Source: a virus
IMG/VR virus record: IMGVR_UViG_3300017987_000073
Span: 16,563 to 80,562 of that record
Direction: 5' to 3' (one strand)
DNA length: 64,000 nucleotides
This document shows, piece after piece, positions 1 to 29,173 of this stretch (position 1 is the first letter of the stretch; each line of letters opens with the position of its first letter). The translations under genes were made by a program, and so were the position numbers. Below the pieces are notes generated by a model, which was given only the letters and a program-made list of their open reading frames with translations, ran no database searches and was not told where the DNA came from.

Positions 1-198
1 GTGCTTCCACTTGATCCCCACCTTCCGGATGAAGGGAGCCGCGCTCCCCGACTCGATCCGGTCCTCGGACTTGTGCGAGACCCGCCCGCACTCCTCGACC
101 AGCCGGAGGGCGTGATCCGCCCACGCCGAGTCGTACTTCGGGGTGATCATCTCGGCGTGGGGTCTCACCACGACCAGCTCCGCTCTCTTCTCGGTCAT
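1..198 (-). CDS. thyX: FAD-dependent thymidylate synthase ThyX, N-terminal part (runs off the window)
   Basis: Not in the ORF track; translated by hand from ATG 198 (ATGA overlap with the dCMP deaminase stop): MTEKRAELVVVRPHAEMITPKYDSAWADHALRLVEECGRVSHKSEDRIESGSAAPFIRKVGIKWKH. This matches the ThyX N-terminal pattern E-x-x-GR-x-x-x-KSE...F...H. Confidence 0.75.
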   Translation of the reverse strand, partial: MTEKRAELVVVRPHAEMITPKYDSAWADHALRLVEECGRVSHKSEDRIESGSAAPFIRKVGIKWKH

Positions 199-827
199 AA
201 CAGCCTCCCTTTCAACCGCTCGACGCCCAGTTGCGCGAGCTCGACCCCGGCGCGCCGGAGCAGTTTGCAAGCCTCCTCCGAGAGCCCGTACCGGCTCCCG
301 TAGTCCTCGGCGAAGACGACCCGCGAGATCCCGACCCGAAGGAACCGCTTCGAGCAGTCCCAGCAGGCGCTCGCCGTCGTGTAGACCGTCCCGCCCTTCG
401 GGGACACCCCGTCGAGCGCGCACTGGAGGAGCGCGTTCTCCTCCGCGTGAAGCGTCCGAACGCAGTGACCCCCGCTCATCAGGTGCCCCCCGACCAACTT
501 CGCCCCGCACTCGGGGCAGAGCGGCGGTCCGTCGTCCCGCGGCCTCACCTCCAGGTTGGGCGCGGCCGCGATCAACTCGACCTCCGCTCGATCGGCCTCC
601 CACTCGCACTCGGGACAACGATACTCGTCGCAGTGGGGCTCCCCCGGGGGGCTCCCGTTGTACCCCCCGGCGATTATCCGGTTGTCCACCGTGATCACAG
701 CCCCGACCCCGTGCCTCCCCGGGTCGAAGAGGAGCTCCGGTCCGCGGTCGCAAGTGGAGCGCGTCGCCGCCAGATGAGCGTGCAGCATGAAGAACTCGTC
801 CCAGGGGAGACGTGGAATTCTGAACAT
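195..827 (-). CDS. dCMP deaminase with an inserted CPEC...CPEC zinc ribbon
   Basis: W-D-E-F-F-M start, RSTC, VGAVI, GYNG, HAEENAL and CWDC zinc-deaminase motifs. Confidence 0.92.
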   Translation of the reverse strand: MFRIPRLPWDEFFMLHAHLAATRSTCDRGPELLFDPGRHGVGAVITVDNRIIAGGYNGSPPGEPHCDEYRCPECEWEADRAEVELIAAAPNLEVRPRDDGPPLCPECGAKLVGGHLMSGGHCVRTLHAEENALLQCALDGVSPKGGTVYTTASACWDCSKRFLRVGISRVVFAEDYGSRYGLSEEACKLLRRAGVELAQLGVERLKGRLL

Positions 828-2260: not shown

Positions 2261-4972
2261 CTAGCCGCAACCGTTGGTGGTGCCGCACGTGGGGCACCGG
2301 TGACAAGCGCCGTTCGGCTCCATGATCGAGCCGCAGTTCGAGCAGGGTGGGCCCGAGACGTGTCGGTGTCGATTACTCGGAACCTCCTCCACCTCGATCG
2401 ACGGCGTCCTCTCCCCTCGCCGCACCCCGTCCGGAAACTCGATCTCGAGCCATCGGAAGATGTAGTCCAGGACGGAGGTAGTCAGTCCGATCTCCTGGTT
2501 CGAGCTGTACCCCGCCGGCTCGAACCGGGTCCGGACGAACTTCTCCTTCAGCACCTCGAACGGGGCTCCATACTGGAGCGCGATCGACGTCGAGGTCGCC
2601 CACGCGTCCAGGAGCCCGGAGACCGTGCTCCCCGTCTTCGCCATCACCACGAAGATCTCCCCGAGTCGTCCGTCGTCGTGCATCCCCGCCGTCACGTACC
2701 CCTCGTGACCGGCGACGTCGATCTTGTGCGTCAAGCTCCGCCGCGTCCCGGGGAGCTTCCGCCGACCGATCACCTTCTCCGGGGGCGTCCACGCGAGGTC
2801 GAGCGTTCGCTTGTTCCCGTTTCCGTTCTTCTTCTTGACCTTGGTCTCGAGCGGCTGGGACTCCTTCGACCCGTCCCGGTAGATGGCGATCGACTTCAGT
2901 CCCAGGTGCCACGACAGGTCGTAGACCGCCTTGACGTCCTCCACCGTGGCGTCGGCCGGGAGGTTGACCGTCTTCGAGATCGACCCGCTCAGGAACGGCT
3001 GAACCGCCCCCAGCATCCGGACGTGCCCCTCCCAGGGGATCGACCTCCCCGCCGTGTCGGGGAGCGCGCAGTCGAAGACCGGGAGGTGCTCCTCCCTCAC
3101 GACCCCGTCGAGGCGCCCCGTCTCCCGGAGCTGGCGAACGGCTCGCTTCATATCACCCACCGGGTACCCGAGCCGCAGGAGCGCCCGATCGACCGCCCGG
3201 TTCTCGTAGGTCATCTCCCCGCCCCCGACCAGCTTCTTCGTCTTCAGAAGCGCCAGATCCGGCTCGATCCCCGTCGTGTCGCAGTCCATCATAAACGCGA
3301 TCGTCCCCGTCGGCGCGAGTAGGGTCGTTTGAGCGTTCCGAAACCCGTGCTCCCCCCCGAGCTCGACCGCCTCGTCCCACGCCTCCCGAGCGCGGACGAC
3401 CAGGTCCACCGGGGCGAGGGCGTACTCCTCCTGAATCGCCGTCCGGTGCCGATCGATCACGCCCCGCATCGCCGCGGCGTTCGCCGCGTACCCGACGAAG
3501 GGCCCCTTGACCGCGGCGATCTCCGCCGCGCGCCGGTAGGCGACCCCCGTCATCAGAGCGGTCACCCCCGCGGCGAACTCCCGGCCGGCCTCCGAGTCGT
3601 AGGGGAGACCTCTCGCCATCAAAGTCGCCCCGAGGTTCGCGTACCCGAGCCCCAGCGGTCGAAACGTCCGACTGTTCTCGTGGATCCCCTTGGTGGGGTA
3701 GCTCGCCCGGTCGACCAGGATCTCCTGGGCGAGGATCAACGTCTCCACCGCGTGGGTGAAATGATCGATCAGGAACCCTCCCCCCGAGTCCAAGAACTTC
3801 AGGAGGTTGATCGAGGCGAGGTTGCAGGCGCTCTCGTCCAGGAACATAAACTCCGAACATGGGTTCGAGGCGTTGATCCTCCCGTCCGTCGGGCAGGTAT
3901 GCCAACGGTTCGCCGCGTCGTCGAACTGGAGTCCAGGATCCCCGCACGCGTGCGACGTCTCCGCGATCAGGTCCAGGAGCTCGCGAGCGTTCACCTCCCC
4001 GACCTCCTCGCCCGTCTTCCGCGCGATCAGCGGCCACCTCTCGCCGGCGTCCGCCGCCCGCATAAAGGCGTCCGTCACCCGAATCGAGTGGTTCGCGTTC
4101 TGGAAGAACACCGACGCGTAAGCCTCCCCGTCGATCCCCTCGCCGTACCCCGCCCGCACGAGCGCCCGCGCCTTCTCCTCCTCGGCGCGCTTGCACTTGA
4201 CGAACTCCACGATGTCCGGGTGGTCGACGTTCAACGAGACGATCTTCGCCGCCCGTCGCGTCCGACCCCCCGACTTGATCACGCCGGCGAACGCGTCGTA
4301 ACCCTTCATAAAGGAGATCGGACCGGACGCGGTCCCGCCCGTCGAGAGCTGCTCCTCCCGACCGCGCAGGTTGGATAGGTTCACGCCGGCGCCGCTCCCG
4401 TACTTGAAGATCATCCCCTCGGTCTTCGCCAGGTCGAGGATCGACTCCATCGTGTCCTTCACGTGGTTGATGAAGCACGCCGAGCACTGCGGCCGCTCCT
4501 CCACCCCCACGTTGAACCAGACCGGGGAGTTGAACGCCGCCCGCTGCGTCACCAGGAGGTGGGCGAGCTCGGCCTCAAACGCCCCTCGATCTTCACCCAC
4601 CTCGAAGTACCCGTCCGCCAACCCCCAGTCGGCGATCGTCCGGACGACCCGCTCGATCAACCCCCGAACCGAGTCCTCCCGCTCCGGCGTCCCGAGGCGC
4701 CCGCGAAGGTACTTCGAAGCGACCACGTTGACCGCCATCTGACTCCAGTTCTCCGGCGCCTCGACCCCCGTTTGCTCGAAGACCACCCCGCCCTTCCCCT
4801 CGATCCTCGCGTCGCGTCGCTTCCACGGTCCCGCCCCCTCGAAGACCCGATCCAACCATTCACCCCTCTCGGTGAAGAGTCGCTTGACCCTCCTCCGAGG
4901 TCCCATCTCCTCGCGCGTCTCCGTCCTCCTGACTTCCTTGACTTCCGTCGTGACCGTGAGCTCCGGTGCCAT
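2261..4972 (-). CDS. nrdJ: class II (adenosylcobalamin-dependent) ribonucleotide reductase
   Basis: FNSPVWFN, QCSACFI, RRAAK, NPCSEF, CNLASINL, APTGTI and SISKTVN motifs; C-terminal domain ending CxxC...CxxC...C; ATG 4972 with AGGAG RBS. Confidence 0.96.
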   Translation of the reverse strand: MAPELTVTTEVKEVRRTETREEMGPRRRVKRLFTERGEWLDRVFEGAGPWKRRDARIEGKGGVVFEQTGVEAPENWSQMAVNVVASKYLRGRLGTPEREDSVRGLIERVVRTIADWGLADGYFEVGEDRGAFEAELAHLLVTQRAAFNSPVWFNVGVEERPQCSACFINHVKDTMESILDLAKTEGMIFKYGSGAGVNLSNLRGREEQLSTGGTASGPISFMKGYDAFAGVIKSGGRTRRAAKIVSLNVDHPDIVEFVKCKRAEEEKARALVRAGYGEGIDGEAYASVFFQNANHSIRVTDAFMRAADAGERWPLIARKTGEEVGEVNARELLDLIAETSHACGDPGLQFDDAANRWHTCPTDGRINASNPCSEFMFLDESACNLASINLLKFLDSGGGFLIDHFTHAVETLILAQEILVDRASYPTKGIHENSRTFRPLGLGYANLGATLMARGLPYDSEAGREFAAGVTALMTGVAYRRAAEIAAVKGPFVGYAANAAAMRGVIDRHRTAIQEEYALAPVDLVVRAREAWDEAVELGGEHGFRNAQTTLLAPTGTIAFMMDCDTTGIEPDLALLKTKKLVGGGEMTYENRAVDRALLRLGYPVGDMKRAVRQLRETGRLDGVVREEHLPVFDCALPDTAGRSIPWEGHVRMLGAVQPFLSGSISKTVNLPADATVEDVKAVYDLSWHLGLKSIAIYRDGSKESQPLETKVKKKNGNGNKRTLDLAWTPPEKVIGRRKLPGTRRSLTHKIDVAGHEGYVTAGMHDDGRLGEIFVVMAKTGSTVSGLLDAWATSTSIALQYGAPFEVLKEKFVRTRFEPAGYSSNQEIGLTTSVLDYIFRWLEIEFPDGVRRGERTPSIEVEEVPSNRHRHVSGPPCSNCGSIMEPNGACHRCPTCGTTNGCG

Positions 4973-4980
4973 CTCTCCTC

Positions 4981-5340
4981 CTAGAATCCGCAGGCGTCCA
5001 GGCGCCTGATGAACTTGGTTTTGAACTGCTCGAGCGTCCAGCTCGACGCCGGCGTGCTCCCCCCCTCGAACTCCTCGGAACAGAATCGGGCGATCTCGCC
5101 GGCGATCCGCCGATCCTCCGGCGCCAATCTCTTGATGAACAGCGAAACGTCGAAGATCCCCTCCTCCACCGGACTCCACCGGATCAACGACGACAACTTC
5201 TCCAGGTCGTACCGCCGCGCGAACGACGGTCGCTCCCACTTCCCGAACCTCTTGACGAACTCCTCGTCCCCCTCCGTCGCCTCCCTGACCCGCTGCACCG
5301 CGCTCTCGACCAAATTGTCCACGACCGAACCCTTCGACAT
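4981..5340 (-). CDS. hypothetical protein
   Basis: GAGGAG RBS, phage-like codon pattern. Confidence 0.65.
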   Translation of the reverse strand: MSKGSVVDNLVESAVQRVREATEGDEEFVKRFGKWERPSFARRYDLEKLSSLIRWSPVEEGIFDVSLFIKRLAPEDRRIAGEIARFCSEEFEGGSTPASSWTLEQFKTKFIRRLDACGF

Positions 5341-15868: not shown

Positions 15869-15869
15869 C

Positions 15870-18053: not shown

Positions 18054-19456
18054 CAGAAGGGACTCCCGTCGTCCGGCGCGTACTTGGCGTCACAGTCGGG
18101 GTGAGGACACTCGATCGCGTCCTGGGGCACCGGCTCCCGGCACTTCGGGCAGATATCGTAATCCTCACCCTCGCCGGGGGTCCATCCGAGCTTCTTACTC
18201 GGAGCCTCCTCCTTGACCATCTTCTCCCGTGGCTTGCGCTCGGTCTTCTTCTCCAGCTTCTTCTCCTCCTTGGGCTCCTCCTTCTTCGCCCGCCGCTTCG
18301 ACTTCTCCTCCTTGGGCTCCTCCTTCTTCCGACGAGTCCGTCGCTCGACCTTCGGCGGAGGCTCCTCCTCCTTCTCCTCCTCGCCCTGGTCGTCCTCGCC
18401 CTGGTCCTGGTCGTCCTCGCCCTGGTCGTCCTCGCCCTGGTCGTCGCCCTGGTCCTGGTCGTCGCCCTGGTCCTGGTCGTCCTCGCCCTGGTTGTCGCCC
18501 TGGTCCTGGTCGTCCTCGCCCTGGTCGTCGTCACCGTCCTTCGCGCGCTTCGACTTCCCGCCCTTCGACTCCTCCTCCTTCGGCTTCTTGAACGTTGCCG
18601 CGTCCACCTCGACCTCGAAGTCGTCGAGCACGATCGCGGCGTTGAGCACCGCGCACATCGCGTCGGGATCGTCGAGCTTGATCTCGTCGTCGAGGTCCGG
18701 CGGCTCGGCGTCGAGGATCGCCATCAGCTTGGAGTCCTTCTCCAGACGCTTCGCCTCCTGCGGCCGCGCCCTGGCGGAGTACATATCAGTCCCCTGCTCG
18801 TTCTCGTCGAACGTCAGGATAAACGGATACGGTGTGATAAAGGGGTTCCCCTCCTCCTCGCCGCTCTCGTCGATCTCCGACTCGATCTCCTTCCGGATGT
18901 CGTTCCCGAGCGACTTCGCCCCGGATAGAATCTCGGCCTTGAGATCGGGCGGGCGGTTACCCTTCGAGTCCTCCACCATCACCGCGACGCAGACGAAGTC
19001 GCTCTGCGGGACCAGTCGCTTCCGGAAGTTGTACCCCTCCCAGCCGAGGATCTCACCTTTGCAGAGATCCATTTTGTTCCGCCCGCTCCCCACCGAGATC
19101 ACGATATCCTCCGCGTCGATGCTCTTGTCCTCCTTGAGCATCTTCCGGAGCTTGGCGAAAGGATCCTCCTTCGGATCGTTCGAGACGTTGTAAGGCACCG
19201 TGACGACCTTGACCTTCGGTTTCCGCTTCGAGTCGTCACGCTTCCGCTTGCCCTCACCTTCGCCCTCCTTCTCCTTGACCTCGACCTCCTTCGGAAACCA
19301 GACCCGAAGTCGATCCACGATATCCGTGTCCGGGTGAAGCACGACCTTCGCCTTCGGTCGCCAGTCCATCCGATCGGTCCTCGAGCGCGTTTTGGTCGCC
19401 TTGCGGAGCTTCTCCATCTTCTCCCGAGCTCGCTTGATCCTTTCTTCCTTCGTCAT
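18053..19456 (-). CDS. phage ssDNA-binding protein (T4 gp32-like position and architecture) with acidic repeat linker
   Basis: Between UvsY-like and RecA-like genes; (GEDDQDQ)n tract, C-terminal CPKC...CPHPDC, acidic DDGSPF tail; ATG 19456. Confidence 0.55.
   Translation of the reverse strand: MTKEERIKRAREKMEKLRKATKTRSRTDRMDWRPKAKVVLHPDTDIVDRLRVWFPKEVEVKEKEGEGEGKRKRDDSKRKPKVKVVTVPYNVSNDPKEDPFAKLRKMLKEDKSIDAEDIVISVGSGRNKMDLCKGEILGWEGYNFRKRLVPQSDFVCVAVMVEDSKGNRPPDLKAEILSGAKSLGNDIRKEIESEIDESGEEEGNPFITPYPFILTFDENEQGTDMYSARARPQEAKRLEKDSKLMAILDAEPPDLDDEIKLDDPDAMCAVLNAAIVLDDFEVEVDAATFKKPKEEESKGGKSKRAKDGDDDQGEDDQDQGDNQGEDDQDQGDDQDQGDDQGEDDQGEDDQDQGEDDQGEEEKEEEPPPKVERRTRRKKEEPKEEKSKRRAKKEEPKEEKKLEKKTERKPREKMVKEEAPSKKLGWTPGEGEDYDICPKCREPVPQDAIECPHPDCDAKYAPDDGSPF
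18381..18530. repeat. imperfect coding tandem repeat (TCGCCCTGGTC-core units encoding GEDDQDQ/GDDQ)
   Basis: Visible directly; about 8 in-frame units of 12-21 nt. Confidence 0.9.
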
Positions 19457-20034
19457 TTCGTCTTCTCCTCGCCCCTCCGGGGCAGCATATCCGGTGAAAT
19501 TCCACGACGGCGCTCGACTAAATCCGCCTGCTTCCTCAAGCTGGCCGACCTCGACTCCCACGCGGCGTGCATCTGCTTACACATATTCCGCTCGCGCTCG
19601 AGCTCACGCCTCGCCCGCCTCCACTCCCGGTAGTCGTTGACGTGCGCCGCGATCCAGTTCTCGATCAGGTCGGTCGTGATCTGACCGCTCATCCGCTTCT
19701 CGCGCTTGTCCCGCTCGAGCGCGTCCCGGGCGTGTTGCGACCACTCGGCGAACGCCGCACGCCAGTGAATCTCGAACTCGTCGAGCTCCTCGATCGCTAC
19801 CTGGAGTAACATCCCAGAGCGCCGGAGGTTCGCCTCCCCCTCGTCGAGTGCCCTCAAAATCCTCTCAGCCGAGGCCCGCCCGTCCCCGAGCGAGAGGTCC
19901 CCCTCCAGCTTCTCCCAGACCTGCTCGATGTTCACGTTTCGTAGCCGCTGGTTGAGGAACGCGAACCGCTCGCCCCGCTTCTTGTGCTCGTCCAGCGCCG
20001 CGGACGAGGTCAATTTCTTCGTTCGTCTTCTCAT
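19453..20034 (-). CDS. UvsY-like recombination mediator (helical)
   Basis: All-helical; IT..LIENWI...Y...L...AWESRSASL pattern; position before the SSB-like and RecA-like genes. Confidence 0.5.
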   Translation of the reverse strand: MRRRTKKLTSSAALDEHKKRGERFAFLNQRLRNVNIEQVWEKLEGDLSLGDGRASAERILRALDEGEANLRRSGMLLQVAIEELDEFEIHWRAAFAEWSQHARDALERDKREKRMSGQITTDLIENWIAAHVNDYREWRRARRELERERNMCKQMHAAWESRSASLRKQADLVERRRGISPDMLPRRGEEKTK

Positions 20035-20035
20035 C

Positions 20036-22900
20036 TCACCCCTCTATAACCGCGATGCGGACGCGCGGCGACCTGCGGAGTTCGTCCAGCTCTGGAGGTC
20101 CGAGAACCCCCTTCGGGTTCGCCCGGATCTGATCGATCGCCTTCTGGACCTTCTTCGGGTCCCGAAGCCACTTCTTGTAACGATCGACCAACTTGACTCG
20201 TCGCTTCCGCTGCGAGACGAGCCACCGCGTCCAGTCCTTGCCCGGGTAAACCACCTCCAGGATCCGCTGAGACGCCGGATAAATCACCTTGTCCCAGTAG
20301 TACTCGGGGTCGTAGGTGATCTCGTCGCTCTCCTCGTACTCGTCCCTGGTCACCCCCTGGAGAGGAGACCCGGACTTCGTCACCACGTACTCAACCTTCA
20401 TCCCGACGAAGAACTCCCGCCCGTGCTCCCGGATCTGCTCCGCCAACTTCACGTGGAGGGATTGACTCTTGTACCTGTCCGGCTCCTTGCTGATCCCCTT
20501 CCCGATCACCACGTCGTCGACCGTGAGCTCCCCGGCCAGACAACTGTCGAACGCCGGCTCGACGATCTCCCGCTCCATCTCGTCCGCGTCGATCCCCTTC
20601 ATCAGGATCGCGTCGAGCACCGCCTTCTGGAGAACCCGCGTCTTCCCCGAGCAGTCCGAGCGCATCACCTCGAGCCCCTTGACCTCGACGTGGTCGGTCT
20701 TCCCGCCCTTGTGAGACAGCATCCGGCCGGCGTACCGCTTCTTCTTGACGAAGAAGATCCGGTCGAAGATATCCTCGAACTCCAGGAGGATCGCGTTCCA
20801 CTCCAGGTTGCAGTTGCACTCCTTCAGGATCTCGACGTACCGCTCCTGACAGTAATCGACGAACCGCTCCCCGATCGCGTTGAGCTCGGCGATCCGCTCC
20901 TCCTCCGTCGCCCACTCCTGGTCGGTCGGCGCCAGTTGGATGTACACCGAGTCCGTGTCACCGTAGAGCGGCGCGAACCCGTTGGCCCGGGCGAACTTCT
21001 CGGTCAGTTTGATGAAGAACTGACCGGAAAGGGTGATCGCCTCCGCTAACTCCGTGTCGTAGAACCGACTCCTCGAGTTCCCCATGTCACCGTAGAAGGA
21101 CAGCCCGAGCCTCTTGAACGAGTAGGCGAGTCGGTAGTACAGGAGGAACAGATCGTCCTGAGTCGTCCCCACCACCTCGAGCCGCTGCTTCTGGAGGTCG
21201 GTGTACTTCTTCCGCCGCTCGAGCGTCCTCTCGAACATCTGGGAGATGTACCCCTGTTGATCGATCCGAAAGGTTGTCCCACCCTTGTGAACGACGACCG
21301 GCGACCCATCTTCACCCACCTTGTCCAGATCTATCTCAGGGATCCTGCACAGTTGCGTGGGGTCGAAATCCGGCCGAGATTCGGTCTTGACTATCGTCTC
21401 CGGCGAAATGTTGAAAGCCCGCACCATCGACGGGTACAGGCTCTTGAAGTCGAACGCCGCCACGTTTCGGTGCATCCCCACCTGGGGCGGGAAGACGTAA
21501 GCCCCCTCGTACTGGTCCGGCTTCCTCGGCGACCAGTACCTCGTCCGGAAGTGATGACCCTCCTTGAAGCCCTTCTTCAGGAGAAGCTGATCCACCTTGG
21601 TGGAGATCTGGAAGTCGTTGGGAAACCCGTTGGCGATCCGGCAGAAGAGCTGCTCCACCATCACGAACCCGGTGAACGCCTCGAGCTTCCGGAGGATCGT
21701 CGAGTCCAACCGGTTGTACTCCTCCAGAAGCTCCGGCTCGTACCGGTACAGGTTGATGAACTTCGGCGTGATCCCCGGCCGCCGCTCCCGGAAGATCGTC
21801 CTCCAGTCCAGCTTCTTGATCTTCAGGACCTTGTCCCCGATCGAGTCCAGCGAGAACGAGATCGCGTCCCCACCGGCGCGGACGTAGTGCCGCTTGAAGA
21901 TCGGCAGGGGGTCCACGAGGAGGTTGTACCTCCAGTCGACGAAGATCTTGTGGTGGTAGAATCGATAGATCAGGACCGGGAAGTCGAACCCCGTCCCGTT
22001 CCACGCGCAGTGGACGTCGTACTTGCTCAGGCACCGCCTCTTGAACTCGAGAAGCATCTCCCGCTCGGCCTCGTCCGTCTCCTCCCGCAGGATCACGAAG
22101 CCCTGGTCGTCGGGGTCGTCCTCGACCCGGTCCCCCTCCCACGCTATCGACAGGATCCGGTTGTGCTCCTTGTTGTCGAAGCCACCGACGGAGTCGTCCG
22201 TCTCGATGTCGATGAATCCCATGTGAAACTTGGGGTTGATCCGAATATCGTAGTCCGTGAGGAAGCGTTGCTTCGGCGTCAGGTCCGCCTCGAGCGGCTC
22301 GACTCCCTTCCGGTCGCACCACCGGAGCGTCCAGTGAACGTCGGTCCACCGGTCCCGGTCCTGCGGAAACCTCACCGCCTGCGGCCGCTCCCCGAGCCAG
22401 AAGGCGTCGGCCCAGTGACCCCCGTACTCCGGGTCCCCTACCCGCTGAAAGTACCGCTTCCGGTTGAACTTGGGGAAGTTCTGCTCGATGTAAACTCGAT
22501 AGTAAAGCTCCGGAAAACGCGGATCAGGCTCGACCCGCTTCGCGTGGTTTCGACAGAGCCAGGCCCACTTATCCTCGGGCACCTTCCGGTAGTCCTCCGC
22601 CGTGATGTAGAAGTACCACTCGAACGGGTGGACCTCCTTCACCCGCCTCCCGGTCGCCGGGTCCCTCGTCAGGAGGACGATATCCTTCCCGTCCGACCAC
22701 CCGTGGTAGTAGTAGGTGTGAGGGTTGAAGACGAAGGAGGAGTCCTTCATCTCGTCGAAGTCAGCCGCCTCCGCGAGGTCCTCGAACGCCCGCTTGTCCT
22801 TGACCTTCTTGGAGTCGATCGCCTGCTCGTACTGGGCCCGGTGCTCCACCTTCTCCGAGAGGTCGTCCTCGAGCGCCTGGGTGTCCGAGTCCTGGATCAG
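20036..22900 (-). CDS. family B DNA polymerase with 3'-5' exonuclease (start uncertain)
   Basis: ExoI DIETD, ExoII WNGTGFD, ExoIII YNRLD, motif A DFKSLYPS, motif B KRLGLSFYG, motif C YGDTDS, KKRYAG, KGLE..RSD. Confidence 0.95.
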   Translation of the reverse strand: MIQDSDTQALEDDLSEKVEHRAQYEQAIDSKKVKDKRAFEDLAEAADFDEMKDSSFVFNPHTYYYHGWSDGKDIVLLTRDPATGRRVKEVHPFEWYFYITAEDYRKVPEDKWAWLCRNHAKRVEPDPRFPELYYRVYIEQNFPKFNRKRYFQRVGDPEYGGHWADAFWLGERPQAVRFPQDRDRWTDVHWTLRWCDRKGVEPLEADLTPKQRFLTDYDIRINPKFHMGFIDIETDDSVGGFDNKEHNRILSIAWEGDRVEDDPDDQGFVILREETDEAEREMLLEFKRRCLSKYDVHCAWNGTGFDFPVLIYRFYHHKIFVDWRYNLLVDPLPIFKRHYVRAGGDAISFSLDSIGDKVLKIKKLDWRTIFRERRPGITPKFINLYRYEPELLEEYNRLDSTILRKLEAFTGFVMVEQLFCRIANGFPNDFQISTKVDQLLLKKGFKEGHHFRTRYWSPRKPDQYEGAYVFPPQVGMHRNVAAFDFKSLYPSMVRAFNISPETIVKTESRPDFDPTQLCRIPEIDLDKVGEDGSPVVVHKGGTTFRIDQQGYISQMFERTLERRKKYTDLQKQRLEVVGTTQDDLFLLYYRLAYSFKRLGLSFYGDMGNSRSRFYDTELAEAITLSGQFFIKLTEKFARANGFAPLYGDTDSVYIQLAPTDQEWATEEERIAELNAIGERFVDYCQERYVEILKECNCNLEWNAILLEFEDIFDRIFFVKKKRYAGRMLSHKGGKTDHVEVKGLEVMRSDCSGKTRVLQKAVLDAILMKGIDADEMEREIVEPAFDSCLAGELTVDDVVIGKGISKEPDRYKSQSLHVKLAEQIREHGREFFVGMKVEYVVTKSGSPLQGVTRDEYEESDEITYDPEYYWDKVIYPASQRILEVVYPGKDWTRWLVSQRKRRVKLVDRYKKWLRDPKKVQKAIDQIRANPKGVLGPPELDELRRSPRVRIAVIEG

Positions 22901-23484
22901 GTCAGCGCCGGCTCGAAAGCCTCCCTGATCCTCCTCGCGTCCCTCTCCAGGTTCGTCCACTTCCGAAGCGTCGAGATCGGGTGACGCAGGAGCACCGCCT
23001 CCGCGAGCGTCCCGTCCACCCTCCTCCGACTCCCGAAGTCGCTTAACCCGAGGGGGGCGCCCGCCGCCCTCCCGAAGACCAAAACCCTCCTCAAGTTCGG
23101 AAGGATCTCCAGTTCTCTCCTCAAGTGAATCTTCCAGCACGTCTCGACCTCCTCCGGTCTGAGTTCTCGGTTCCCCGGCGTCGCGCACTTCACCGCGTTC
23201 GTCGCGTAGACCTCCCGAAGGTCCAGCTCGGCGACCCTCGACAGATGCCAGAACGCCCGCGCCGCCCCGCGGAGCTTCAGCGCGGCCGCCCTGGACCCGA
23301 GCCGCCCGAGGAGCGGCGCCAAAAAGCACCCCACGCACCCCCACCCCTCGGCCACGACAGATGGGTTCAACCCCACGACCGCGATCCTCGCCCCCGCCGG
23401 CCCGTACCCGACGCACCTCGGGAGACCGAGGTCACCGAGCCCGCAGGCGCGGCAAGCTCCGGTTCTTCTCAAGAGCACTCGCAC
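22897..23484 (-). CDS. uracil-DNA glycosylase superfamily protein (family 4/5-like Fe-S scaffold, divergent)
   Basis: CRAC, VVGLNP motif A, YATNAVKC..PGNR..PEEVETC, VFGRAA, RHP motif B. Confidence 0.85.
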   Translation of the reverse strand: MRVLLRRTGACRACGLGDLGLPRCVGYGPAGARIAVVGLNPSVVAEGWGCVGCFLAPLLGRLGSRAAALKLRGAARAFWHLSRVAELDLREVYATNAVKCATPGNRELRPEEVETCWKIHLRRELEILPNLRRVLVFGRAAGAPLGLSDFGSRRRVDGTLAEAVLLRHPISTLRKWTNLERDARRIREAFEPALT

Positions 23485-24007
23485 CCAAGATCCCCGCGTT
23501 CAACGCCGTCTCGACCCCTCGGATCAACTCCTCCCTCGCCTTCGTCCGATCCGAGGTCTCGATCCCCAGCAGGTTTCCCCCGAGCTTCAGCCACTCGTTC
23601 GCCACCTGGTAAAACGAACTCTGAATCTTTATCTCCGTCTCCAGCGTCCGCCGCGGAACCCCGTCCCGCTCGATCACCCGACGCCGAGCCGCTTCGACCG
23701 GACAGTCCAACAGGAAAACCCACACGCTCGCTGCGAGGTACCGCTTCAGGTCGTGGGAGTACCCCCTCATACCGTCGTACACGACCGAGGAGAGCGCCCA
23801 GCGGTCCGCCACGAAGTCGAAGCGCCGCGAGAACGCCAGCAGATCGAAGTTGCACTGAATCCCCAGCTTGTAGATCTCCACGTCCGAGAGCTCCCCGATC
23901 GCCCCGTGCCGCACCGAGTCGCGGAAGACGAAGAACCCGAACTGCTTCAGCGCCTCGCACGCCGTGGTCTTCCCCACGCCGTCGATCCCCTCGATCGCGA
24001 TCAGCAC
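23432..24007 (-). CDS. thymidylate/dNMP kinase
   Basis: IAIEGIDGVGKTT P-loop, DRW.LSS.VY, LDCPVEAARRR; GTG 24007. Confidence 0.88.
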   Translation of the reverse strand: MLIAIEGIDGVGKTTACEALKQFGFFVFRDSVRHGAIGELSDVEIYKLGIQCNFDLLAFSRRFDFVADRWALSSVVYDGMRGYSHDLKRYLAASVWVFLLDCPVEAARRRVIERDGVPRRTLETEIKIQSSFYQVANEWLKLGGNLLGIETSDRTKAREELIRGVETALNAGILGASALEKNRSLPRLRAR

Positions 24008-25061
24008 GACGCCACCCCCTCCGAGGGTTGTCCGGACGGCCCGGCCCAAAAGCCCGCCTTGCCATCGACCTCGAAGAGCTGTCGATCGGTCCTCGCCAGG
24101 TCCTCGAAGGTGACGTCCTCCGGTCGATCCTCCTTCGCACCCGGTATCACGATTCCTAGCTGCCTGGAGATCGTCTCCCGATCCGAGCACGCCTCGTTGA
24201 ACTGCGCGACGTTCGGATCAGCGGGACCCGGACCCTTCACCTGGTTCCGCCACACGATCGGTACAGACACCCGAACGCCTCCGCCGTCGTGTGCGCCCGG
24301 TGGTAGCAGCACGCCTCGACGAAGTCGCACCGCGGCCGGAGCCACTTCGAGAGGTAGGGAAACGCGTCGTCCTTCCCGAGCCTGTCCCGCAGGAGCCACG
24401 CCACCGCGACCGTGTCCTCCGCCTCGCTGAACGTCATCCGCTTGGCGCAGAGGTTCTTCAGCGCGGCGTAGTTAATCGACATCACGAACCGGTGCACGCA
24501 CGAGATCGGGAGCAACTCCCGCGCCTCCTGCCAGGAGGTCACCCCGTCCGACAGAAACTGACCGTAAGCTCGCTTCGCGTGCTCCGCCACGTCGATCGCC
24601 TTCTTCAGCTTCATCGGATCCCGCCACGTCGACTCGTGGAACCGAAAGGGGACGTCCGCGTGGTTGTTGTCCCGCGTCCCGAGCGACGCGAAGACCACCC
24701 CGAGCCTCGCCCGGGCGATCTGGTCGAAGCTCCACCTCGAGAGCCCCTGCACCGCGAAGGTGAACTTCGGCGCCTCGAGCGCCAGGGGAAGCGCCCGCCC
24801 CATAAGCACCGACCGCACCACCTCGAATCGGTGCTCCGGCTTTGTCCGATCCCACCTTATCGCCTGGTTCGAGACCGCCGATCCCCAGGTCGCCACCGCC
24901 ATCGTGAAGAGCGACCGGTAGGGGTTCATCGGCGCGTCGATCAGATCCACCTGAATCCCCTCGACCCCTCGGAAGTACCGCGTCTTGACCCGCGGCGCCT
25001 GGTGAGGGAGCGTCCCCAGTTGCTCCCGTATTTCCCTGATTATCTCCGCTCTGCTTCTCAT
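24001..25061 (-). CDS. divergent ThyX-fold flavoprotein; reading frame stops at 24237, with a probable C-terminal continuation to 24001 after a frameshift near 24250
   Basis: LEAPKFTFAVQGLSR..DQIARAR, EARELLP, IN...L.N....R match ThyX topology; ATG 25061. Confidence 0.82.
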
Positions 25062-26014
25062 CTCGACCCCTCCAAAATTCTGCTCACCTCCTCGAGCGCC
25101 CGCCCAAGGTCGGAGACCTTCGTCGCCCCCTCCACGTCGATCCCCCGGTTCAACTCCCCGGCCACCAGCACCACCCGCCGACCGATCCCCACGACGTCGG
25201 ACGCGACGACCGGGTCGTCCTCCACCATCGCCACGAGTCCCGGGAAGTCGTCGAGGATCTTCCGGTGCTTCTCCGGGTGGAAGAGGATCCCGTCGAACCG
25301 AAGTTTGTTTGAGTTGAGCCACTCCAAAGTGTCGGCGTAAATCCGACTGAAGCGCCAGTAAGGACGACGCGAGAGGAGAACCACCGTCCCACCGGCCGCG
25401 CGAATCCCGTCCAGGAGCTCCTTCGCCCCCTCCTTCACCCCCTGGAACCGTTTCTCCCCGCTCCGACGGTAGTGATCCTTGCTGATTTCGTAACCCTCCG
25501 CCCCGATACTCGCCTTCAAATCGGCTCGCGTCTCCGCGTTCACGTCGTTCGGAAGTGACTTCCGCGCGAACTTCAGGTACGAGGTCGGCCAGTCGTTAAG
25601 AACCCCGTCGACGTCCACCCCGACGATCGGGTCGCTCGGAGAGATCGCCCGGAGCCGCCGCTCCATCCCGTACCGACACTCCACGACCTGACTCTTCCTC
25701 CCGAACTCCTCGAAGACCTCGGCCGCCGTGAAGCCCCAGACGTTCGCCAGGCCCAGCAGGAACTTGAAGCAGTCGACCCACTCCTCGAGCGCGTTGGACC
25801 GCACCACCTCCCCGCCTCCGGCTTGGTGCATCTTCCAGGGCGTCTCCCGGAGGAACTCGTGGAGCTCCCCCTCCACGTGAAGAACGAATTGCTTCGTCCA
25901 CTCCACCCGGCCCGCCTTCGAGAGCTCGTCCAGGTCGAGCCGGTGGTCCTGGAACACCCTCCGATTGAACTCCCGTTGACGATCGAAGATCTCGTCCAGT
26001 CTATCCGATTGCAT
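25058..26014 (-). CDS. all-alpha dUTPase/dCTPase (dUTPase_2/MazG-like) fused to a HAD 5'-nucleotidase-like domain
   Basis: Q..FN, GELHEFL..TPWK, LEEWVDCFKF, K..V...R; then VDVDGVL, LSRRP, TLEWL, EK, VEDDP; ATG 26014. Confidence 0.88.
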   Translation of the reverse strand: MQSDRLDEIFDRQREFNRRVFQDHRLDLDELSKAGRVEWTKQFVLHVEGELHEFLRETPWKMHQAGGGEVVRSNALEEWVDCFKFLLGLANVWGFTAAEVFEEFGRKSQVVECRYGMERRLRAISPSDPIVGVDVDGVLNDWPTSYLKFARKSLPNDVNAETRADLKASIGAEGYEISKDHYRRSGEKRFQGVKEGAKELLDGIRAAGGTVVLLSRRPYWRFSRIYADTLEWLNSNKLRFDGILFHPEKHRKILDDFPGLVAMVEDDPVVASDVVGIGRRVVLVAGELNRGIDVEGATKVSDLGRALEEVSRILEGSR

Positions 26015-26960
26015 ACAACTCCTCCGCGACGTCGTGGATCCGGATCGCGTGGTCCCACCGCGCCATCCGTCCGACGTGTCTGACCAGACCTCCCCACTCC
26101 TCCGCCTCCCTCGAGTCCCCGAGCACCTGCACCCGTGCGCTCGGTCCAACGTGCACCGCCTCGACCGCCTCGCAGAACCCCAACGGGGCGTCGATCGAGT
26201 TGAACTCGTAGACGCACCCCCGCGCGGGAGGCCCGCAGAGGAACTTCACCCGGTCGAAAAGAAGCGCCGGCTCCACGTTGTACAGAAACTCCCGAACACC
26301 CCGCCGCCGCTCCTTGGCGATCCCCACGTTGAACGGCTTCCCCACGACCCACGTCTTCCACCCCGCTGAATACTCCCGCCGATCTCGGAACCCCTGGGTA
26401 TTGGTGAATTCGGGGGTCAGAGAGTCCCAGATCGGCGCCGGGAGGGTGTTGATCACCCGAGTCGCCCGAACGGGTTCCTCCAACCCCTGGACCCGAAGAA
26501 ACGCCTCCACGGCCCCGGAGCTCGTGACCTCGAGCACGCGTCCAGGAACAATCGTCACTCGCGCCTCGAGACGCCGAACCAGTTCATCCACCGAGACGTC
26601 GAACGTCTCGATCCCACCCGAGCGCCCCGAGCTCGCCGCCGAGTCCGGAACCAGCGTCTTCAGACCCTTCAACCCTCGACTCCGGCGGTAGTAGTAGGCG
26701 CGGAGTTCCTCGGGCACTCGGTCCACCACCTCACCACCCGGGGCGATCCAACCGAACCGCACCGTCCGAGGGCGAAACCCTCCCCCTCCAACCTCCTTCA
26801 GGAGCCGCTCCGTCGCCGGAGTCCTCCACAGGTAAGTCGGGGCTAACTCCCGAAGTCGAGAATCACCACCGACGTTGTCCCCGATCACGAGGTCCGCGCG
26901 CAGTATCGCCGCGGCCACGAGCCCGACCGGACCCGCTCCCAACACCACCGTTCTGTTCAT
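26001..26960 (-). CDS. FAD-dependent oxidoreductase (UDP-galactopyranose mutase/protoporphyrinogen oxidase-like fold)
   Basis: VVLGAGPVGLVAA dinucleotide-binding motif, GG motif, VINTLP, C-terminal VGRMARW. Confidence 0.8.
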   Translation of the reverse strand: MNRTVVLGAGPVGLVAAAILRADLVIGDNVGGDSRLRELAPTYLWRTPATERLLKEVGGGGFRPRTVRFGWIAPGGEVVDRVPEELRAYYYRRSRGLKGLKTLVPDSAASSGRSGGIETFDVSVDELVRRLEARVTIVPGRVLEVTSSGAVEAFLRVQGLEEPVRATRVINTLPAPIWDSLTPEFTNTQGFRDRREYSAGWKTWVVGKPFNVGIAKERRRGVREFLYNVEPALLFDRVKFLCGPPARGCVYEFNSIDAPLGFCEAVEAVHVGPSARVQVLGDSREAEEWGGLVRHVGRMARWDHAIRIHDVAEELYAIG

Positions 26961-28381: not shown

Positions 28382-29098
28382 CTAACCGGCGACTTGTGCG
28401 GCCTCCTCCTCCGCCTTGAGCCGAGAGAGACGCTCGTAGGTCAGGAGGACGGACCGCACGTTCGAGGCGTACCAGATCCCCCCGTTTTTCGACTTCACGC
28501 CCCGGTTGTTCAGCCGCTCGGCGATCGCGTGGTAAGGGAACCCGCTCTCCCGGAGCTGCACCATCCGCAGGAGAACCTTCATCTCGGGCCCGTGCTCGAC
28601 GAGCTGCTTCCCCTCCTTGGCGAACCCGAAGGGCGTCTTCCCGTAGACCCGCCGCTGGCGCGCGCACCGCTCCGAGGCGTCCCGGCACCTCCGGGAGATC
28701 TGCTCCCGCTCCATCTCGGCGACCGCAGCGAGGATCGTGAGGGTGAATCTCCCGTGAGGCGTCGAGGAGTCGATCTGCTCCCGGACACTCACGAACCCGC
28801 GACCAGCGCGCTGGAGCTGGGATACCAACCCCAAAAAGTCCAGCACCGACCGGGAGAGTCGATCGATCGCGTAGACGATCAGGGCGTCCGCCTCCCCGTC
28901 CAGGACCCGCTCGAACGCCTCCCGCACCCCCGGCCGGTTTAGAGACTTCCCGCTCTTCCCCTCGTCCCGGATCACGTCCACGATCTCCGCGTCGACCAGG
29001 TCGGCGTAGGACCTTATCTTCGCCTCCTGGTCCGCGAGGGAAACCCCGTTCTTCGCTTGGTGAGCCGTAGATACCCGAATATACGAGATTAGCTTCAT
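28382..29098 (-). CDS. serine recombinase (resolvase catalytic domain plus short Recombinase domain)
   Basis: YIRVST, SGK..NRPG, DRLSR, AEMERE.IS.R, TPFGF, IAERLN..G, W....VRS.L; ATG 29098 with GGAGG RBS. Confidence 0.94.
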   Translation of the reverse strand: MKLISYIRVSTAHQAKNGVSLADQEAKIRSYADLVDAEIVDVIRDEGKSGKSLNRPGVREAFERVLDGEADALIVYAIDRLSRSVLDFLGLVSQLQRAGRGFVSVREQIDSSTPHGRFTLTILAAVAEMEREQISRRCRDASERCARQRRVYGKTPFGFAKEGKQLVEHGPEMKVLLRMVQLRESGFPYHAIAERLNNRGVKSKNGGIWYASNVRSVLLTYERLSRLKAEEEAAQVAG

Positions 29099-29121
29099 CT
29101 CTCCACCTCCCTTATACACTT

Positions 29122-29149
29122 ATTGTAGCAGTTTAATACAGTTTGTAAA
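29122..29149 (-). promoter_or_regulatory. sigma70 promoter of the recombinase
   Basis: TTTACA-N16-TACAAT with extended -10 TG on the minus strand. Confidence 0.65.
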
Positions 29150-29173
29150 GGGAAGTGTACAACTAAGTGTACG

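What the first reader, a model, noticed from the sequence alone, without database searches (positions are those of the whole stretch)
20036..26960. Candidate undescribed DNA base-modification operon built around a rewired ThyX paralogue
Seen: six coupled genes in one run: FAD oxidoreductase, all-alpha dNTP pyrophosphatase fused to a HAD phosphatase, ThyX-fold protein, dNMP kinase, divergent Fe-S UDG and family B polymerase. A separate canonical-looking thyX, dCMP deaminase and RNR at 1-5 kb appear to cover ordinary dTMP supply. Established: phages that replace a base before replication (T4 hmC, SPO1 hmU) use this same logic of a pyrophosphatase that removes the canonical dNTP, a thymidylate-synthase paralogue that modifies the dNMP, a dedicated kinase and their own polymerase. 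In those phages the modifying enzyme is ThyA-fold. Inference: a flavin-based ThyX-fold route, possibly with the FAD oxidoreductase, makes a non-canonical pyrimidine nucleotide. The product cannot be read from sequence.
Basis: partly seen in the sequence, partly recalled or inferred. Interest (0 to 1): 0.9.

Follow-up and report, generated by a model that had tools for sequence, protein, structure and literature searches.

The report
Phage ThyX-paralogue nucleotide gene module
An uncultured sediment and seawater phage keeps, beside its DNA polymerase gene, a conserved set of nucleotide enzymes built around a rewired second copy of the flavin-type thymidylate synthase; the set probably makes an unusual DNA pyrimidine, but no chemistry has been measured.

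Summary
All six genes are at the stated coordinates on the minus strand. They overlap or abut except possibly UDG-PolB, whose start was not fixed. They are a flavoprotein with a UDP-galactopyranose-mutase/protoporphyrinogen-oxidase-like fold, an all-alpha NTP pyrophosphatase fused to a HAD phosphatase, a divergent ThyX-fold protein, a Tmk-like kinase, a UDG-like protein and PolB. A canonical thyX (straddling the window start), a dCMP deaminase and a class II RNR are also present.

The ThyX paralogue looks frameshifted in the window. Three public assemblies carry one more base there, which restores a 352-aa protein.

The pyrophosphatase-HAD/ThyX-like pair is conserved in phages of 23-67% GC that use three different polymerase families. 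In a wider set, 29 of 31 "RDN-motif" ThyX-like genes have the fusion directly upstream, against 2 of 25 canonical-like ones.

Canonical ThyX co-occurs in only 5 of 11 genomes. In a sister subfamily the RDN-type enzyme is the only thymidylate-synthase homologue. No trimeric dUTPase is present in any of the 11 genomes. An ordinary dTMP reading therefore stays open.

Best reading (about 0.5): a pre-replicative route to a non-canonical 5-substituted pyrimidine. The product is unknown. This scan has flagged the same module before on other DNA.

The parts
26001..26960 (-). Orphan flavoprotein (319 aa) with an N-terminal GxGxxG, a GG doublet and a C-terminal GRxARW motif. The fold is UDP-galactopyranose-mutase / protoporphyrinogen-oxidase / amine-oxidase-like.
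   Evidence: No Pfam, PHROG, NCBIfam or PDB sequence hit. Only 33 homologues, all hypothetical. AF2 pLDDT 90.5. Foldseek probability 1.0 to putrescine oxidase and renalase. VIA-align best match is UGM 4dsg, Z 20.1, 306 of 319 residues aligned.
25058..26014 (-). Fusion protein (318 aa). The N-terminal part is an all-alpha NTP pyrophosphatase (dimeric-dUTPase/MazG-like, with ExxE and EExxD kept). The C-terminal part is a HAD phosphatase (DxDGVL, S/T, K, DD), weakly like 5'(3')-deoxyribonucleotidase.
   Evidence: PF08761 6.7e-8. phrog_173 and phrog_415. Profile against PDB: Leishmania and Campylobacter dUTPases at 7e-6 to 2e-5; mdN 2jao at E 0.19 only. Motifs read from the orthologue sequences and the invariant columns of alignment A4.
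24001..25061 (-). Divergent ThyX-fold paralogue with a Cys-rich C-terminal extension. The window copy lacks one base at 24249/24250; with that base the protein is 352 aa. Its stop overlaps the kinase start.
   Evidence: PF02511 50.9 bits. Homologues are 315-360 aa. An extra C lies behind 24249 in three public assemblies. The AF2 model of the 74%-identical L003 orthologue has pLDDT 92.4. Foldseek probability 1.0 to ThyX structures 3gwc, 1o26 and 4p5b.
23432..24007 (-). Thymidylate-kinase-like dNMP kinase with a GTG start that overlaps the ThyX paralogue's stop.
   Evidence: PF02223 8.6e-12. TIGR00041 scores 46.9 bits, below the 83.25 cut-off. phrog_761.
22897..23484 (-). UDG-superfamily protein of family 4/5 type. 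Motif A reads GLNPS instead of GEAPG; motif B HP is present; it has a CxxC plus further Cys.
   Evidence: PF03167 2.1e-9. NF040953 and TIGR00758 score far below their cut-offs. Sequence read.
20036..22900 (-). Family B DNA polymerase with a 3'-5' exonuclease domain. The exact start was not fixed.
   Evidence: PF00136 4e-46, with weak PF03104 and PF10108 hits. 67-73% identical orthologues in L004-L008.
1..198 (-). First 66 codons of a canonical thyX; the rest lies upstream of the window. It carries the signature RHR...QESQRY.
   Evidence: PF02511 159.3 bits at G000:C1:16059-16676. Sequence in L001.
195..827 (-). dCMP deaminase.
   Evidence: PF00383 5.4e-15.
2261..5239 (-). Class II (B12-dependent) ribonucleotide reductase.
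   Evidence: PF02867 1.7e-130 and PF08471 1e-16.

Best explanation
The run is a phage DNA-precursor module that makes a non-canonical 5-substituted pyrimidine deoxynucleotide before replication.

Proposed steps, all inferred:
1. The all-alpha pyrophosphatase domain turns a pyrimidine dNTP into its dNMP.
2. The ThyX-fold paralogue, with reduced FAD as one-carbon carrier, adds a carbon unit at C5. The substrate is most likely dUMP, because the arginines that hold the phosphate and the uracil carbonyls are invariant. The changed residues (His53 lost, Ser88 to Gly, Tyr91 to Asp) divert the exocyclic-methylene intermediate away from simple reduction to thymine.
3. The UGM/PPOX-like flavoprotein (and, in relatives, an SDR) tailors the product or supplies a partner substrate.
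4. The Tmk-like kinase phosphorylates the product for the phage polymerase.
5. The HAD domain dephosphorylates a competing or unwanted dNMP.
6. The polymerase-linked UDG-like protein removes uracil, or the unmodified base, from new DNA.

Because a canonical ThyX is kept in this genome, thymine would be replaced only in part, or a cytosine would be the target.

Shown: the gene content, the folds, the motif changes, the conservation and the linkage. Inferred: every catalytic step and the product.
For: 1. Fold and active site. The fold is ThyX. The equivalents of R74/R78/R80/R147/R174 and R90 are invariant or nearly so. The signature RHR-x7-S-x-R-Y reads RAR...G-T-R-D-N, and GHxSxxEH reads GxALPLALE. 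The thyX equivalog score is 33.6 bits against a cut-off of 87.9, on the 59%-identical homologue P0001.

2. Non-redundancy. A canonical ThyX (159 bits) lies in the same genome. The same holds in G001, G003, G006 and G007, which form two lineages (65% against 31-34% GC). The canonical copies sit at different positions and share only 32-34% identity.

3. Linkage. The pyrophosphatase-HAD fusion accompanies the paralogue in 14 of 14 evaluable neighbourhoods, directly upstream in most and 3-6 kb away in four (L012, L014, L015, L022). A flavoprotein homologue is present in 10 of 14; the other four carry a shorter protein there, one of which has a weak Rossmann-type hit. A P-loop or Tmk-like kinase was found in 10 of 14. 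A UDG-like domain fused or adjacent to PolB, PolA or PolIII-alpha is present in 12 of 14. An SDR epimerase/dehydratase is present in 7.

4. Specificity of the pairing. In a wider sample, 29 of 31 RDN-type ThyX-like genes have a full-length fusion directly upstream, against 2 of 25 canonical-like ThyX genes.

5. Inteins interrupt the RxR...G and R...FCE motifs in homologues (split matches in L020 and L022). This marks those loops as functionally critical.

6. Two extra redox enzymes (flavoprotein, SDR) are not needed for dTMP synthesis.

7. Precedents:
- The XP12 group places an NTP pyrophosphohydrolase and a glycosylase-like gene next to its TS homologue (PMC9206674).
- SP-15, whose thymine is hypermodified, has two Thy1 genes (PMC5977210).
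- PB1-like phages carry a related trio, and their DNA holds sugar-like thymidine derivatives made by unknown genes (PMC12191111).
Against: - There are no chemical data on any member, and no cultured phage in INPHARED carries this subfamily.
- Canonical ThyX is absent from 6 of 11 genomes, including the complete G002 and G008, and no genome has ThyA. In the sister subfamily the RDN-type enzyme is the only TS homologue in 18 of 18 genomes. This is what a plain viral dTMP synthase would look like.
- No trimeric dUTPase is present in any of the 11 genomes, and the pyrophosphatase domain is closest to dimeric dUTPases. dUTP to dUMP to dTMP to dTDP explains three of the genes without new chemistry.
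- dCMP deaminase in 9 of 11 genomes also fits ordinary dTMP supply.
- Linkage could be inherited with the replication module rather than selected for a special function.
- Source databases name these proteins 'thymidylate synthase ThyX'.
- The role given to the HAD domain is a guess.
Confidence: 0.5

Rival explanations
1. Ordinary thymidylate supply. The RDN-type protein is a deeply divergent viral lineage of flavin-dependent dTMP synthase. The all-alpha domain is the phage's dUTPase, which feeds it dUMP and keeps uracil out of DNA. The Tmk-like kinase makes dTDP, and UDG removes residual uracil. The canonical ThyX in this genome is a later, redundant acquisition. The flavoprotein would be a redox helper.
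For: - Sole TS homologue in 18 of 18 sister-subfamily genomes and in the complete G002 and G008.
- No trimeric dUTPase in 11 of 11 genomes.
- The best PDB and Pfam matches of the N-terminal domain are dimeric dUTPases.
- dCMP deaminase in 9 of 11 genomes, including G002, where the paralogue is the only enzyme that could use the dUMP.
- All phosphate- and uracil-binding arginines are kept.
- Tmk family kinase.
Against: - Two lineages keep a full canonical ThyX beside it.
- Residues of the ThyX signature and of the folate-side GHxSxxEH motif are replaced throughout the family.
- This reading does not explain why the enzyme is tied to a phosphatase that would destroy a dNMP, when canonical-like viral ThyX genes are not (29 of 31 against 2 of 25).
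- It also does not explain the UGM-like flavoprotein and the SDR inside the operon.
Confidence: 0.33
2. The target is cytosine. The pyrophosphatase is a dCTPase, the paralogue methylates or hydroxymethylates dCMP through flavin, the kinase phosphorylates the product, and canonical ThyX and dCMP deaminase cover dTMP. This is T4 or XP12 logic on a ThyX fold.
For: - It explains the co-existence with canonical ThyX and dCMP deaminase in this genome.
- An Asp replaces Tyr91 next to the retained Arg90. This recalls the Asn-to-Asp switch between ThyA and T4 dCMP hydroxymethylase (my own knowledge, not tested here).
- The XP12-group gene order (dCMP deaminase, TS homologue, NTP pyrophosphohydrolase, glycosylase-like gene) is similar (PMC9206674).
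Against: - The arginine equivalent to R174, which holds a uracil carbonyl in canonical ThyX (my recollection), is invariant.
- G002 has a dCMP deaminase but no other TS, which points to dUMP as the substrate.
- Sister-subfamily genomes have no dCMP deaminase (0 of 11), so an XP12-like route to dTMP through m5dCMP deamination does not hold there.
- A HAD dNMPase would destroy dCMP.
Confidence: 0.1
3. The module does not serve DNA building blocks. Instead it sanitises the nucleotide pool, counters a host defence, or makes a free modified nucleoside (dNTP to dNMP to modified dNMP to nucleoside), as nucleoside-antibiotic pathways do with the ThyX paralogue PolB.
For: - Pyrophosphatase plus phosphatase in one chain converts a dNTP all the way to a nucleoside.
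- PolB of polyoxin synthesis is a known neofunctionalised ThyX (PMC5954106; PDB 4p5b among the fold matches).
Against: The module is constantly placed beside the replicative polymerase, a UDG-like domain and a dNMP kinase, across three polymerase families. That argues for DNA precursor supply. No export or resistance genes were seen.
Confidence: 0.05

Closest known systems
Canonical flavin-dependent thymidylate synthase ThyX (T. maritima TM0449, M. tuberculosis ThyX; Pfam PF02511, TIGR02170)
   Same: Same fold (Foldseek probability 1.0, TM to target 0.6-0.75). The arginines for the dUMP phosphate, the uracil and FAD are conserved.
   Different: The signature RHR-x7-S-x-R-Y becomes RAR...GTRDN, and the GHxSxxEH histidines are lost. 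There is an added Cys-rich C-terminal extension of about 90 residues. The score is far below the equivalog cut-off. It is always paired with a pyrophosphatase-HAD fusion.
Pre-replicative base replacement in T4 (gp56 dCTPase, gp42 dCMP hydroxymethylase, gp1 kinase) and in SPO1/phi-e (dUMP hydroxymethylase, dTTPase-dUTPase, dTMP nucleotidase); named from my own knowledge
   Same: The logic is the same: a dNTP pyrophosphatase, a TS-like dNMP-modifying enzyme, a dedicated kinase and the phage's own polymerase. The fusion would combine the two hydrolase activities described for hmU phages.
   Different: The modifying enzyme has a ThyX fold, not a ThyA fold. An extra flavoprotein is present. A canonical ThyX is kept, which argues against full thymine exclusion. 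No modified base has been shown.
Xanthomonas phage XP12 / Pamexvirus 5-methylcytosine cluster (PMC9206674)
   Same: The neighbourhood holds dCMP deaminase, a TS homologue, a nucleotide pyrophosphohydrolase and a glycosylase-like gene beside the polymerase.
   Different: There the TS is ThyA-type and is accompanied by DHFR. It has no HAD fusion and no flavoprotein.
Bacillus phage SP-15, two Thy1-family genes (gp9, gp130) (PMC5977210)
   Same: The phage has one canonical-like and one aberrant Thy1 gene. The authors hypothesise that the aberrant one makes hydroxymethyl-dUMP for a hypermodified thymine. An SDR-type gene (gp129) lies next to it.
   Different: The gp130 sequence shows no RDN motif and was not found by the searches with the window's paralogue. 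It has no pyrophosphatase-HAD neighbour. The claim is a hypothesis only.
Pbunavirus (PB1-like) and Xanthomonas XcP1 replication-module trio
   Same: The neighbourhood reads: a putative flavoprotein two to five short genes upstream (hhalign probability 87% to the window's family over the N-terminal 120 residues), a histidine-less ThyX (RTR...ETSRA), a HAD-containing fusion, an exonuclease and PolIII-alpha. Phages F8 and 14-1 carry sugar-like thymidine derivatives made by unknown genes (PMC12191111).
   Different: This is a different ThyX subfamily without the RDN motif. The domain order of the fusion is reversed. The reported mark sits in a TG context, which a pool enzyme alone does not explain.
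PolB of polyoxin biosynthesis (Streptomyces; PDB 4p5a/4p5b)
   Same: It is a neofunctionalised ThyX paralogue that exists beside a housekeeping ThyX (PMC5954106), and it is among the best fold matches.
   Different: It is bacterial, methylates UMP/dUMP for an antibiotic and keeps the canonical chemistry. It has no hydrolase or flavoprotein partners.

Membership tests
ThyX (flavin-dependent thymidylate synthase) | ThyX fold | tested here: met
   AF2 model of the L003 orthologue, pLDDT 92.4. Foldseek probability 1.0 to 3gwc, 1o26 and 4p5b.
ThyX (flavin-dependent thymidylate synthase) | Pfam PF02511 above the gathering score | tested here: met
   50.9 bits against 24.8.
ThyX (flavin-dependent thymidylate synthase) | NCBIfam TIGR02170 equivalog cut-off | tested here: not met
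   33.6 bits against 87.9 for the full-length homologue P0001.
ThyX (flavin-dependent thymidylate synthase) | ThyX signature RHR-x7-S-x-R-Y and the GHxSxxEH histidines | tested here: not met
   The signature reads RARLGVVFASLGTRDN and the second motif reads GxALPLALE. These replacements hold across 39 family members.
ThyX (flavin-dependent thymidylate synthase) | Arginines that bind the dUMP phosphate, the uracil and FAD (Tm R74/R78/R80/R90/R147/R174) | tested here: met
   R109, R119, R181 and R208 are invariant; R117 is at least 90% conserved; RDN is conserved. The mapping uses the HMM alignment to M. tuberculosis ThyX.
ThyX (flavin-dependent thymidylate synthase) | dUMP to dTMP activity / thyA complementation | not testable with these tools
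   Needs an experiment.
All-alpha NTP pyrophosphatase (dimeric dUTPase / MazG superfamily) | Pfam match and the acidic metal-binding motifs ExxE ... ExxD | tested here: met
   PF08761 33.4 bits against 22.9. E50, E53, E78 and D81 are invariant or nearly invariant in 13 orthologues. Profile hits to 2cje and 1w2y.
All-alpha NTP pyrophosphatase (dimeric dUTPase / MazG superfamily) | dUTP specificity | not testable with these tools
   Only the core motif aligns to the dUTPases, and the domain is about 115 residues long.
HAD phosphatase, 5'(3')-deoxyribonucleotidase type | HAD motifs I-IV (DxD, S/T, K, DD) | tested here: met
   D134 and D136 are invariant, with S/T-x-R-P, K and D266.
HAD phosphatase, 5'(3')-deoxyribonucleotidase type | Significant similarity to mdN/cdN (PF06941) | tested here: inconclusive
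   Profile against 2jao gives E 0.19. There is no Pfam hit. phrog_415, a PNK-type HAD, scores 1.6e-6.
Uracil-DNA glycosylase family 4 | UDG superfamily domain | tested here: met
   PF03167 38.1 bits against 24.3.
Uracil-DNA glycosylase family 4 | Motif A GEAPG and the family-4 model cut-offs | tested here: not met
   Motif A reads GLNPS. TIGR00758 scores 36.8 against 125.3; NF040953 scores 37.6 against 250.
Thymidylate kinase | Pfam PF02223 / TIGR00041 | tested here: inconclusive
   PF02223 scores 45.6 bits, above its cut-off of 27. TIGR00041 scores 46.9, below its cut-off of 83.25.
UDP-galactopyranose mutase / PPOX / amine-oxidase flavoproteins | Two-domain FAD fold with GxGxxG and a GG doublet | tested here: met
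   VIA-align Z 20.1 to 4dsg, 18.1 to 2ivd and 17.1 to 3hdq. Foldseek probability 1.0. Motifs read in alignment A2.
UDP-galactopyranose mutase / PPOX / amine-oxidase flavoproteins | Mutase or oxidase activity, and the substrate | not testable with these tools
   A shared fold shows no function.
Pre-replicative base-replacement system (T4 / SPO1 type) | Non-canonical base in virion DNA | not testable with these tools
   There is no isolate, and assemblies read modified bases as canonical ones.
Pre-replicative base-replacement system (T4 / SPO1 type) | Pyrophosphatase, TS-like enzyme and kinase co-inherited with the phage polymerase | tested here: met
   Fusion 14 of 14; a kinase (P-loop or Tmk-like) found in 10 of 14; polymerase-linked UDG-like domain 12 of 14. 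29 of 31 against 2 of 25 in the wider sample.

The most novel reading that the evidence does not exclude
The RDN-type ThyX and the UGM-like flavoprotein together form a flavin-only route that attaches something larger than a methyl group to C5 of dUMP at the nucleotide stage. Candidates are a hydroxymethyl group or a sugar- or polyol-derived carbon chain. This would be the first ThyX-fold pathway to a hypermodified thymidine. Distant relatives of the trio in PB1-like phages would then explain the sugar-like thymidines of F8 and 14-1, whose genes are unknown.
Probability: 0.2. Interest if true: 0.85.

Novelty: new variant of a known kind. Interest (0 to 1): 0.6.

Why it matters
All proven routes to pre-replicative pyrimidine modification in viruses use ThyA-fold enzymes. 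A ThyX-fold route working with a second covalent-flavin-type enzyme would add a new enzyme chemistry to DNA modification. It would also give a sequence marker, the RDN motif with an upstream pyrophosphatase-HAD fusion, for predicting modified genomes in metagenomes. The proteins carrying that marker are currently auto-annotated as plain ThyX. It could also point to the missing genes for the thymidine hypermodification of therapeutic Pbunavirus phages.

If the enzyme is instead a plain dTMP synthase, it would show that ThyX catalysis does not need residues thought to be part of its signature.

Tried and rejected
Contexts of representative-library hits and a flavoprotein-ThyX contact could therefore not be tested.
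- The search for related loci with the broad alignment A1 failed for lack of a conserved stretch. Narrower alignments A3 and A5 worked.
- Single-sequence PDB searches for the paralogue, the flavoprotein and the fusion gave nothing significant.
- tblastn of the window's paralogue against 50,697 phage records found only three weak matches to canonical thyX. One of them, Bacillus phage DZ1, has a normal RHR...SQRY enzyme.
- The MetaGPA papers do not mention ThyX, Thy1, MazG or flavin.
- An XP12-like idea was dropped. It proposed that the RDN enzyme methylates dCMP and that a deaminase then yields dTMP. Sister-subfamily genomes have no dCMP deaminase (0 of 11).
- SP-15 gp130 was read and shows no RDN motif.
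- An alignment of the UDG-like domains across the polymerase fusions was too poor to compare motifs.
- hhalign of the fusion profile against the PB1-like HAD fusion was not significant (probability 2%).
- A full thymine-exclusion (hmU-type) reading for this genome was set aside because a canonical ThyX is kept.

Full report
**Source.** The window is bases 16563-80562 of an 80.5-kb IMG/VR virus record. CheckV puts it at 79% complete. It has 61-68% G+C, and every gene examined here lies on the minus strand. Near-identical DNA occurs in sediment and seawater metagenomes from several studies.

**Observation.**
- 26001-26960 encodes a 319-aa protein with an N-terminal GxGxxG. It matches no Pfam, PHROG, NCBIfam or PDB sequence.
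- 25058-26014 encodes an all-alpha NTP pyrophosphatase (PF08761, 6.7e-8) followed by a HAD domain.
- 24237-25061 matches Thy1 (PF02511) at 50.9 bits.
- 23432-24007 matches thymidylate kinase.
- 22897-23484 matches the UDG superfamily.
- 20036 to about 22900 is a family B polymerase.

The first four genes overlap at their junctions: 14 nt, ATGA and 7 nt. The UDG reading frame, taken from its first GTG, overlaps the kinase stop; the PolB start was not fixed. dCMP deaminase (195-827) and a class II RNR (2261-5239) are confirmed. The canonical thyX scores 159 bits and carries RHR...QESQRY. It straddles the window start, so only its first 66 codons (1-198) are inside.

**A frameshift that is not real.** Homologues of the paralogue are 315-360 aa long and carry a Cys-rich C-terminal extension. 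In the window the frame stops at 24237, but the extension continues in another frame to 24001, where its stop overlaps the kinase's GTG. Logan assemblies of three runs (depths 153x, 131x and 4x) all hold an extra C behind 24249. On the coding strand this gives ...SCGRNQVKGPG..., as in the homologues. The two deep runs may be the record's own source; the third is not flagged as such. I take the gene as intact (352 aa, 24001-25061).

**What the proteins are.**

*The ThyX paralogue.* An AlphaFold model of the 74%-identical L003 orthologue has pLDDT 92.4. It matches ThyX structures with Foldseek probability 1.0, including the UMP/dUMP methylase PolB. In an alignment of 39 family members, five residues are invariant: E96, R109, R119, R181 and R208. 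R117, Q114 and D131 are nearly invariant. A profile alignment to M. tuberculosis ThyX maps these onto the arginines that hold the nucleotide and FAD. The signature RHR-x7-S-x-R-Y reads RAR-LGVVFASL-G-T-R-D-N: His becomes Ala, Ser becomes Gly, Arg is kept and Tyr becomes Asp. GHxSxxEH reads GxALPLALE. The thyX equivalog model gives 33.6 bits against a cut-off of 87.9.

*The flavoprotein.* It has only 33 detectable homologues, all hypothetical. Its model (pLDDT 90.5) is an FAD amine-oxidase-type fold. An exhaustive structural search ranks UDP-galactopyranose mutase first (4dsg, Z 20.1, rmsd 3.6, 306 residues aligned), followed by protoporphyrinogen oxidases.

*The fusion protein.* The N-terminal domain keeps the acidic motifs of all-alpha NTP pyrophosphatases and is nearest to dimeric dUTPases. 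The HAD part keeps DxDGVL, S/T, K and DD, and resembles 5'(3')-deoxyribonucleotidases only weakly.

*The UDG-like protein.* It has GLNPS where family 4 has GEAPG.

**Conservation.** Close relatives (L003-L008, 60-74% identity) keep the order flavoprotein, fusion, paralogue, kinase, (insert), UDG, PolB. More distant phages with 23-60% G+C were found with an alignment. Unbiased clustering of all ORFs within 8 kb gave these counts over 14 evaluable neighbourhoods:
- the fusion in 14 of 14, directly upstream of the paralogue in most and 3-6 kb away in four;
- the flavoprotein in 10 of 14, with a shorter protein at that place in the other four, one of which has a weak Rossmann-type hit;
- a small P-loop kinase in 6 and a Tmk-like kinase in 4 (10 of 14 together);
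- an SDR epimerase/dehydratase in 7;
- a UDG-like domain in 12.

The UDG-like domain is a separate gene next to PolB, is fused to the C-terminus of PolA, or is fused to the N-terminus of PolIII-alpha.

A sister subfamily with the motif THQxVRTRxG....Q.GGRDNDWR shows the same pairing. After dereplication, 29 of 31 RDN-type genes with enough upstream sequence have a full-length fusion directly upstream, against 2 of 25 canonical-like viral ThyX genes. The loci are related to one another, so this is not a clean statistic. The contrast is nevertheless large, and it spans very different genomes. Inteins interrupt the two key motifs in several homologues.

**Evidence for an ordinary function.**
- Among 11 genomes with this subfamily, a canonical ThyX is present in five: G000, G001, G003, G006 and G007.
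- It is absent from two complete genomes, G002 and G008. ThyA is absent from all.
- In 18 genomes of the sister subfamily (nine at least 90% complete), the RDN-type protein is the only ThyX/ThyA homologue.
- None of the 11 genomes has a trimeric dUTPase, and nine have a dCMP deaminase.
- G002 has the deaminase and no other enzyme that could use dUMP. This points to dUMP as the paralogue's substrate and fits a plain dUTP to dUMP to dTMP to dTDP line.
- Source databases call these proteins ThyX.

**Evidence for a distinct function.**
- Two lineages keep a full canonical ThyX as well. The copies sit at different genomic positions and share only 32-34% identity, whereas the paralogues share 43-44%.
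- The signature residues are replaced throughout the family.
- The enzyme is tied to a phosphatase that would destroy a dNMP, and ordinary viral ThyX genes are not.
- Two further redox enzymes sit inside the operon.

**Literature.**
- I found no paper describing this module.
- PolB of polyoxin synthesis is the known neofunctionalised ThyX paralogue.
- Kropinski et al. 2018 reported two Thy1 genes in phage SP-15, whose thymine is partly hypermodified, and guessed that the aberrant one makes hydroxymethyl-dUMP. Its sequence is unrelated in motif to the present family.
- The XP12 group places a pyrophosphohydrolase and a glycosylase-like gene beside its ThyA-type enzyme.
- The nearest cultured relatives are PB1-like Pseudomonas phages and Xanthomonas XcP1. 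They have a histidine-less ThyX followed by a HAD-containing fusion and PolIII-alpha, with a weakly related putative flavoprotein a few short genes upstream.
- Yee et al. 2025 found that about a quarter of the thymidines of F8 and 14-1 carry sugar-like groups in a TG context, made by unknown genes.
- Earlier notes of this scan reached similar readings on other DNA. A later check there judged that the PB1 case also fits plain dTMP synthesis.

**Verdict.** The claim of a non-canonical base is plausible but unproven. I put it at about 0.5, the ordinary dTMP reading at about 0.33, a cytosine-directed variant at about 0.1 and a non-DNA role at about 0.05.

Noticed in passing
window 24249-24250: The IMG/VR record lacks one base (a G of a GGG run on the coding strand) that three public assemblies have. 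The missing base splits the ThyX paralogue into two frames.
   Followed up: yes
P0004, P0005; L020 8612-9744; L022 8606-9084; L003 12131-13359; L022 3734-7957: Inteins or intein-sized inserts interrupt the ThyX-like protein at its two conserved motifs in several phages. They also interrupt PolB (L003) and PolIII-alpha (L022, Intein_splicing hit).
   Followed up: partly
L013 8920-11319; L012 9612-13337; L022 3734-7957; window 22897-23484: A UDG-like domain accompanies the replicative polymerase in three unrelated polymerase families. It is C-terminal on PolA and N-terminal on PolIII-alpha in L022 (by clustering in L012 and L014 as well), and a separate gene before PolB.
   Followed up: partly
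L025-L104 (for example L047 5853-8259): A larger sister subfamily (motif GGRDNDWR) is paired with the same fusion in 40-80-kb phages. It is their only thymidylate-synthase homologue, and those genomes have no dCMP deaminase and no detectable flavoprotein.
   Followed up: partly
window 837-1346: A small gene upstream of the dCMP deaminase has a weak helix-hairpin-helix glycosylase hit (PF22175, E 0.003). This recalls the ENDO3c-like gene in the XP12 cluster.
   Followed up: no
window 6668-7351: A short SDR (epimerase/dehydratase N-terminal half, 227 aa) lies away from the module. Relatives G002-G004 have a longer SDR inside the module.
   Followed up: partly
window 12977-18053: An SbcC-like gene (SMC_N), an SbcD/Mre11-like phosphoesterase and a RecA-like gene lie downstream of the polymerase block. 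The RecA-like gene also recurs near the module in distant loci.
   Followed up: no
window 18053-19561: A highly charged protein with KE-rich stretches and a long DDQG/EDDQ acidic repeat ends in a Cys-rich motif. It is conserved in the clade, in L012 and in L014.
   Followed up: no
window 28382-29863: A serine recombinase (Resolvase plus Recombinase domains) lies next to a matrixin-like zinc peptidase.
   Followed up: no
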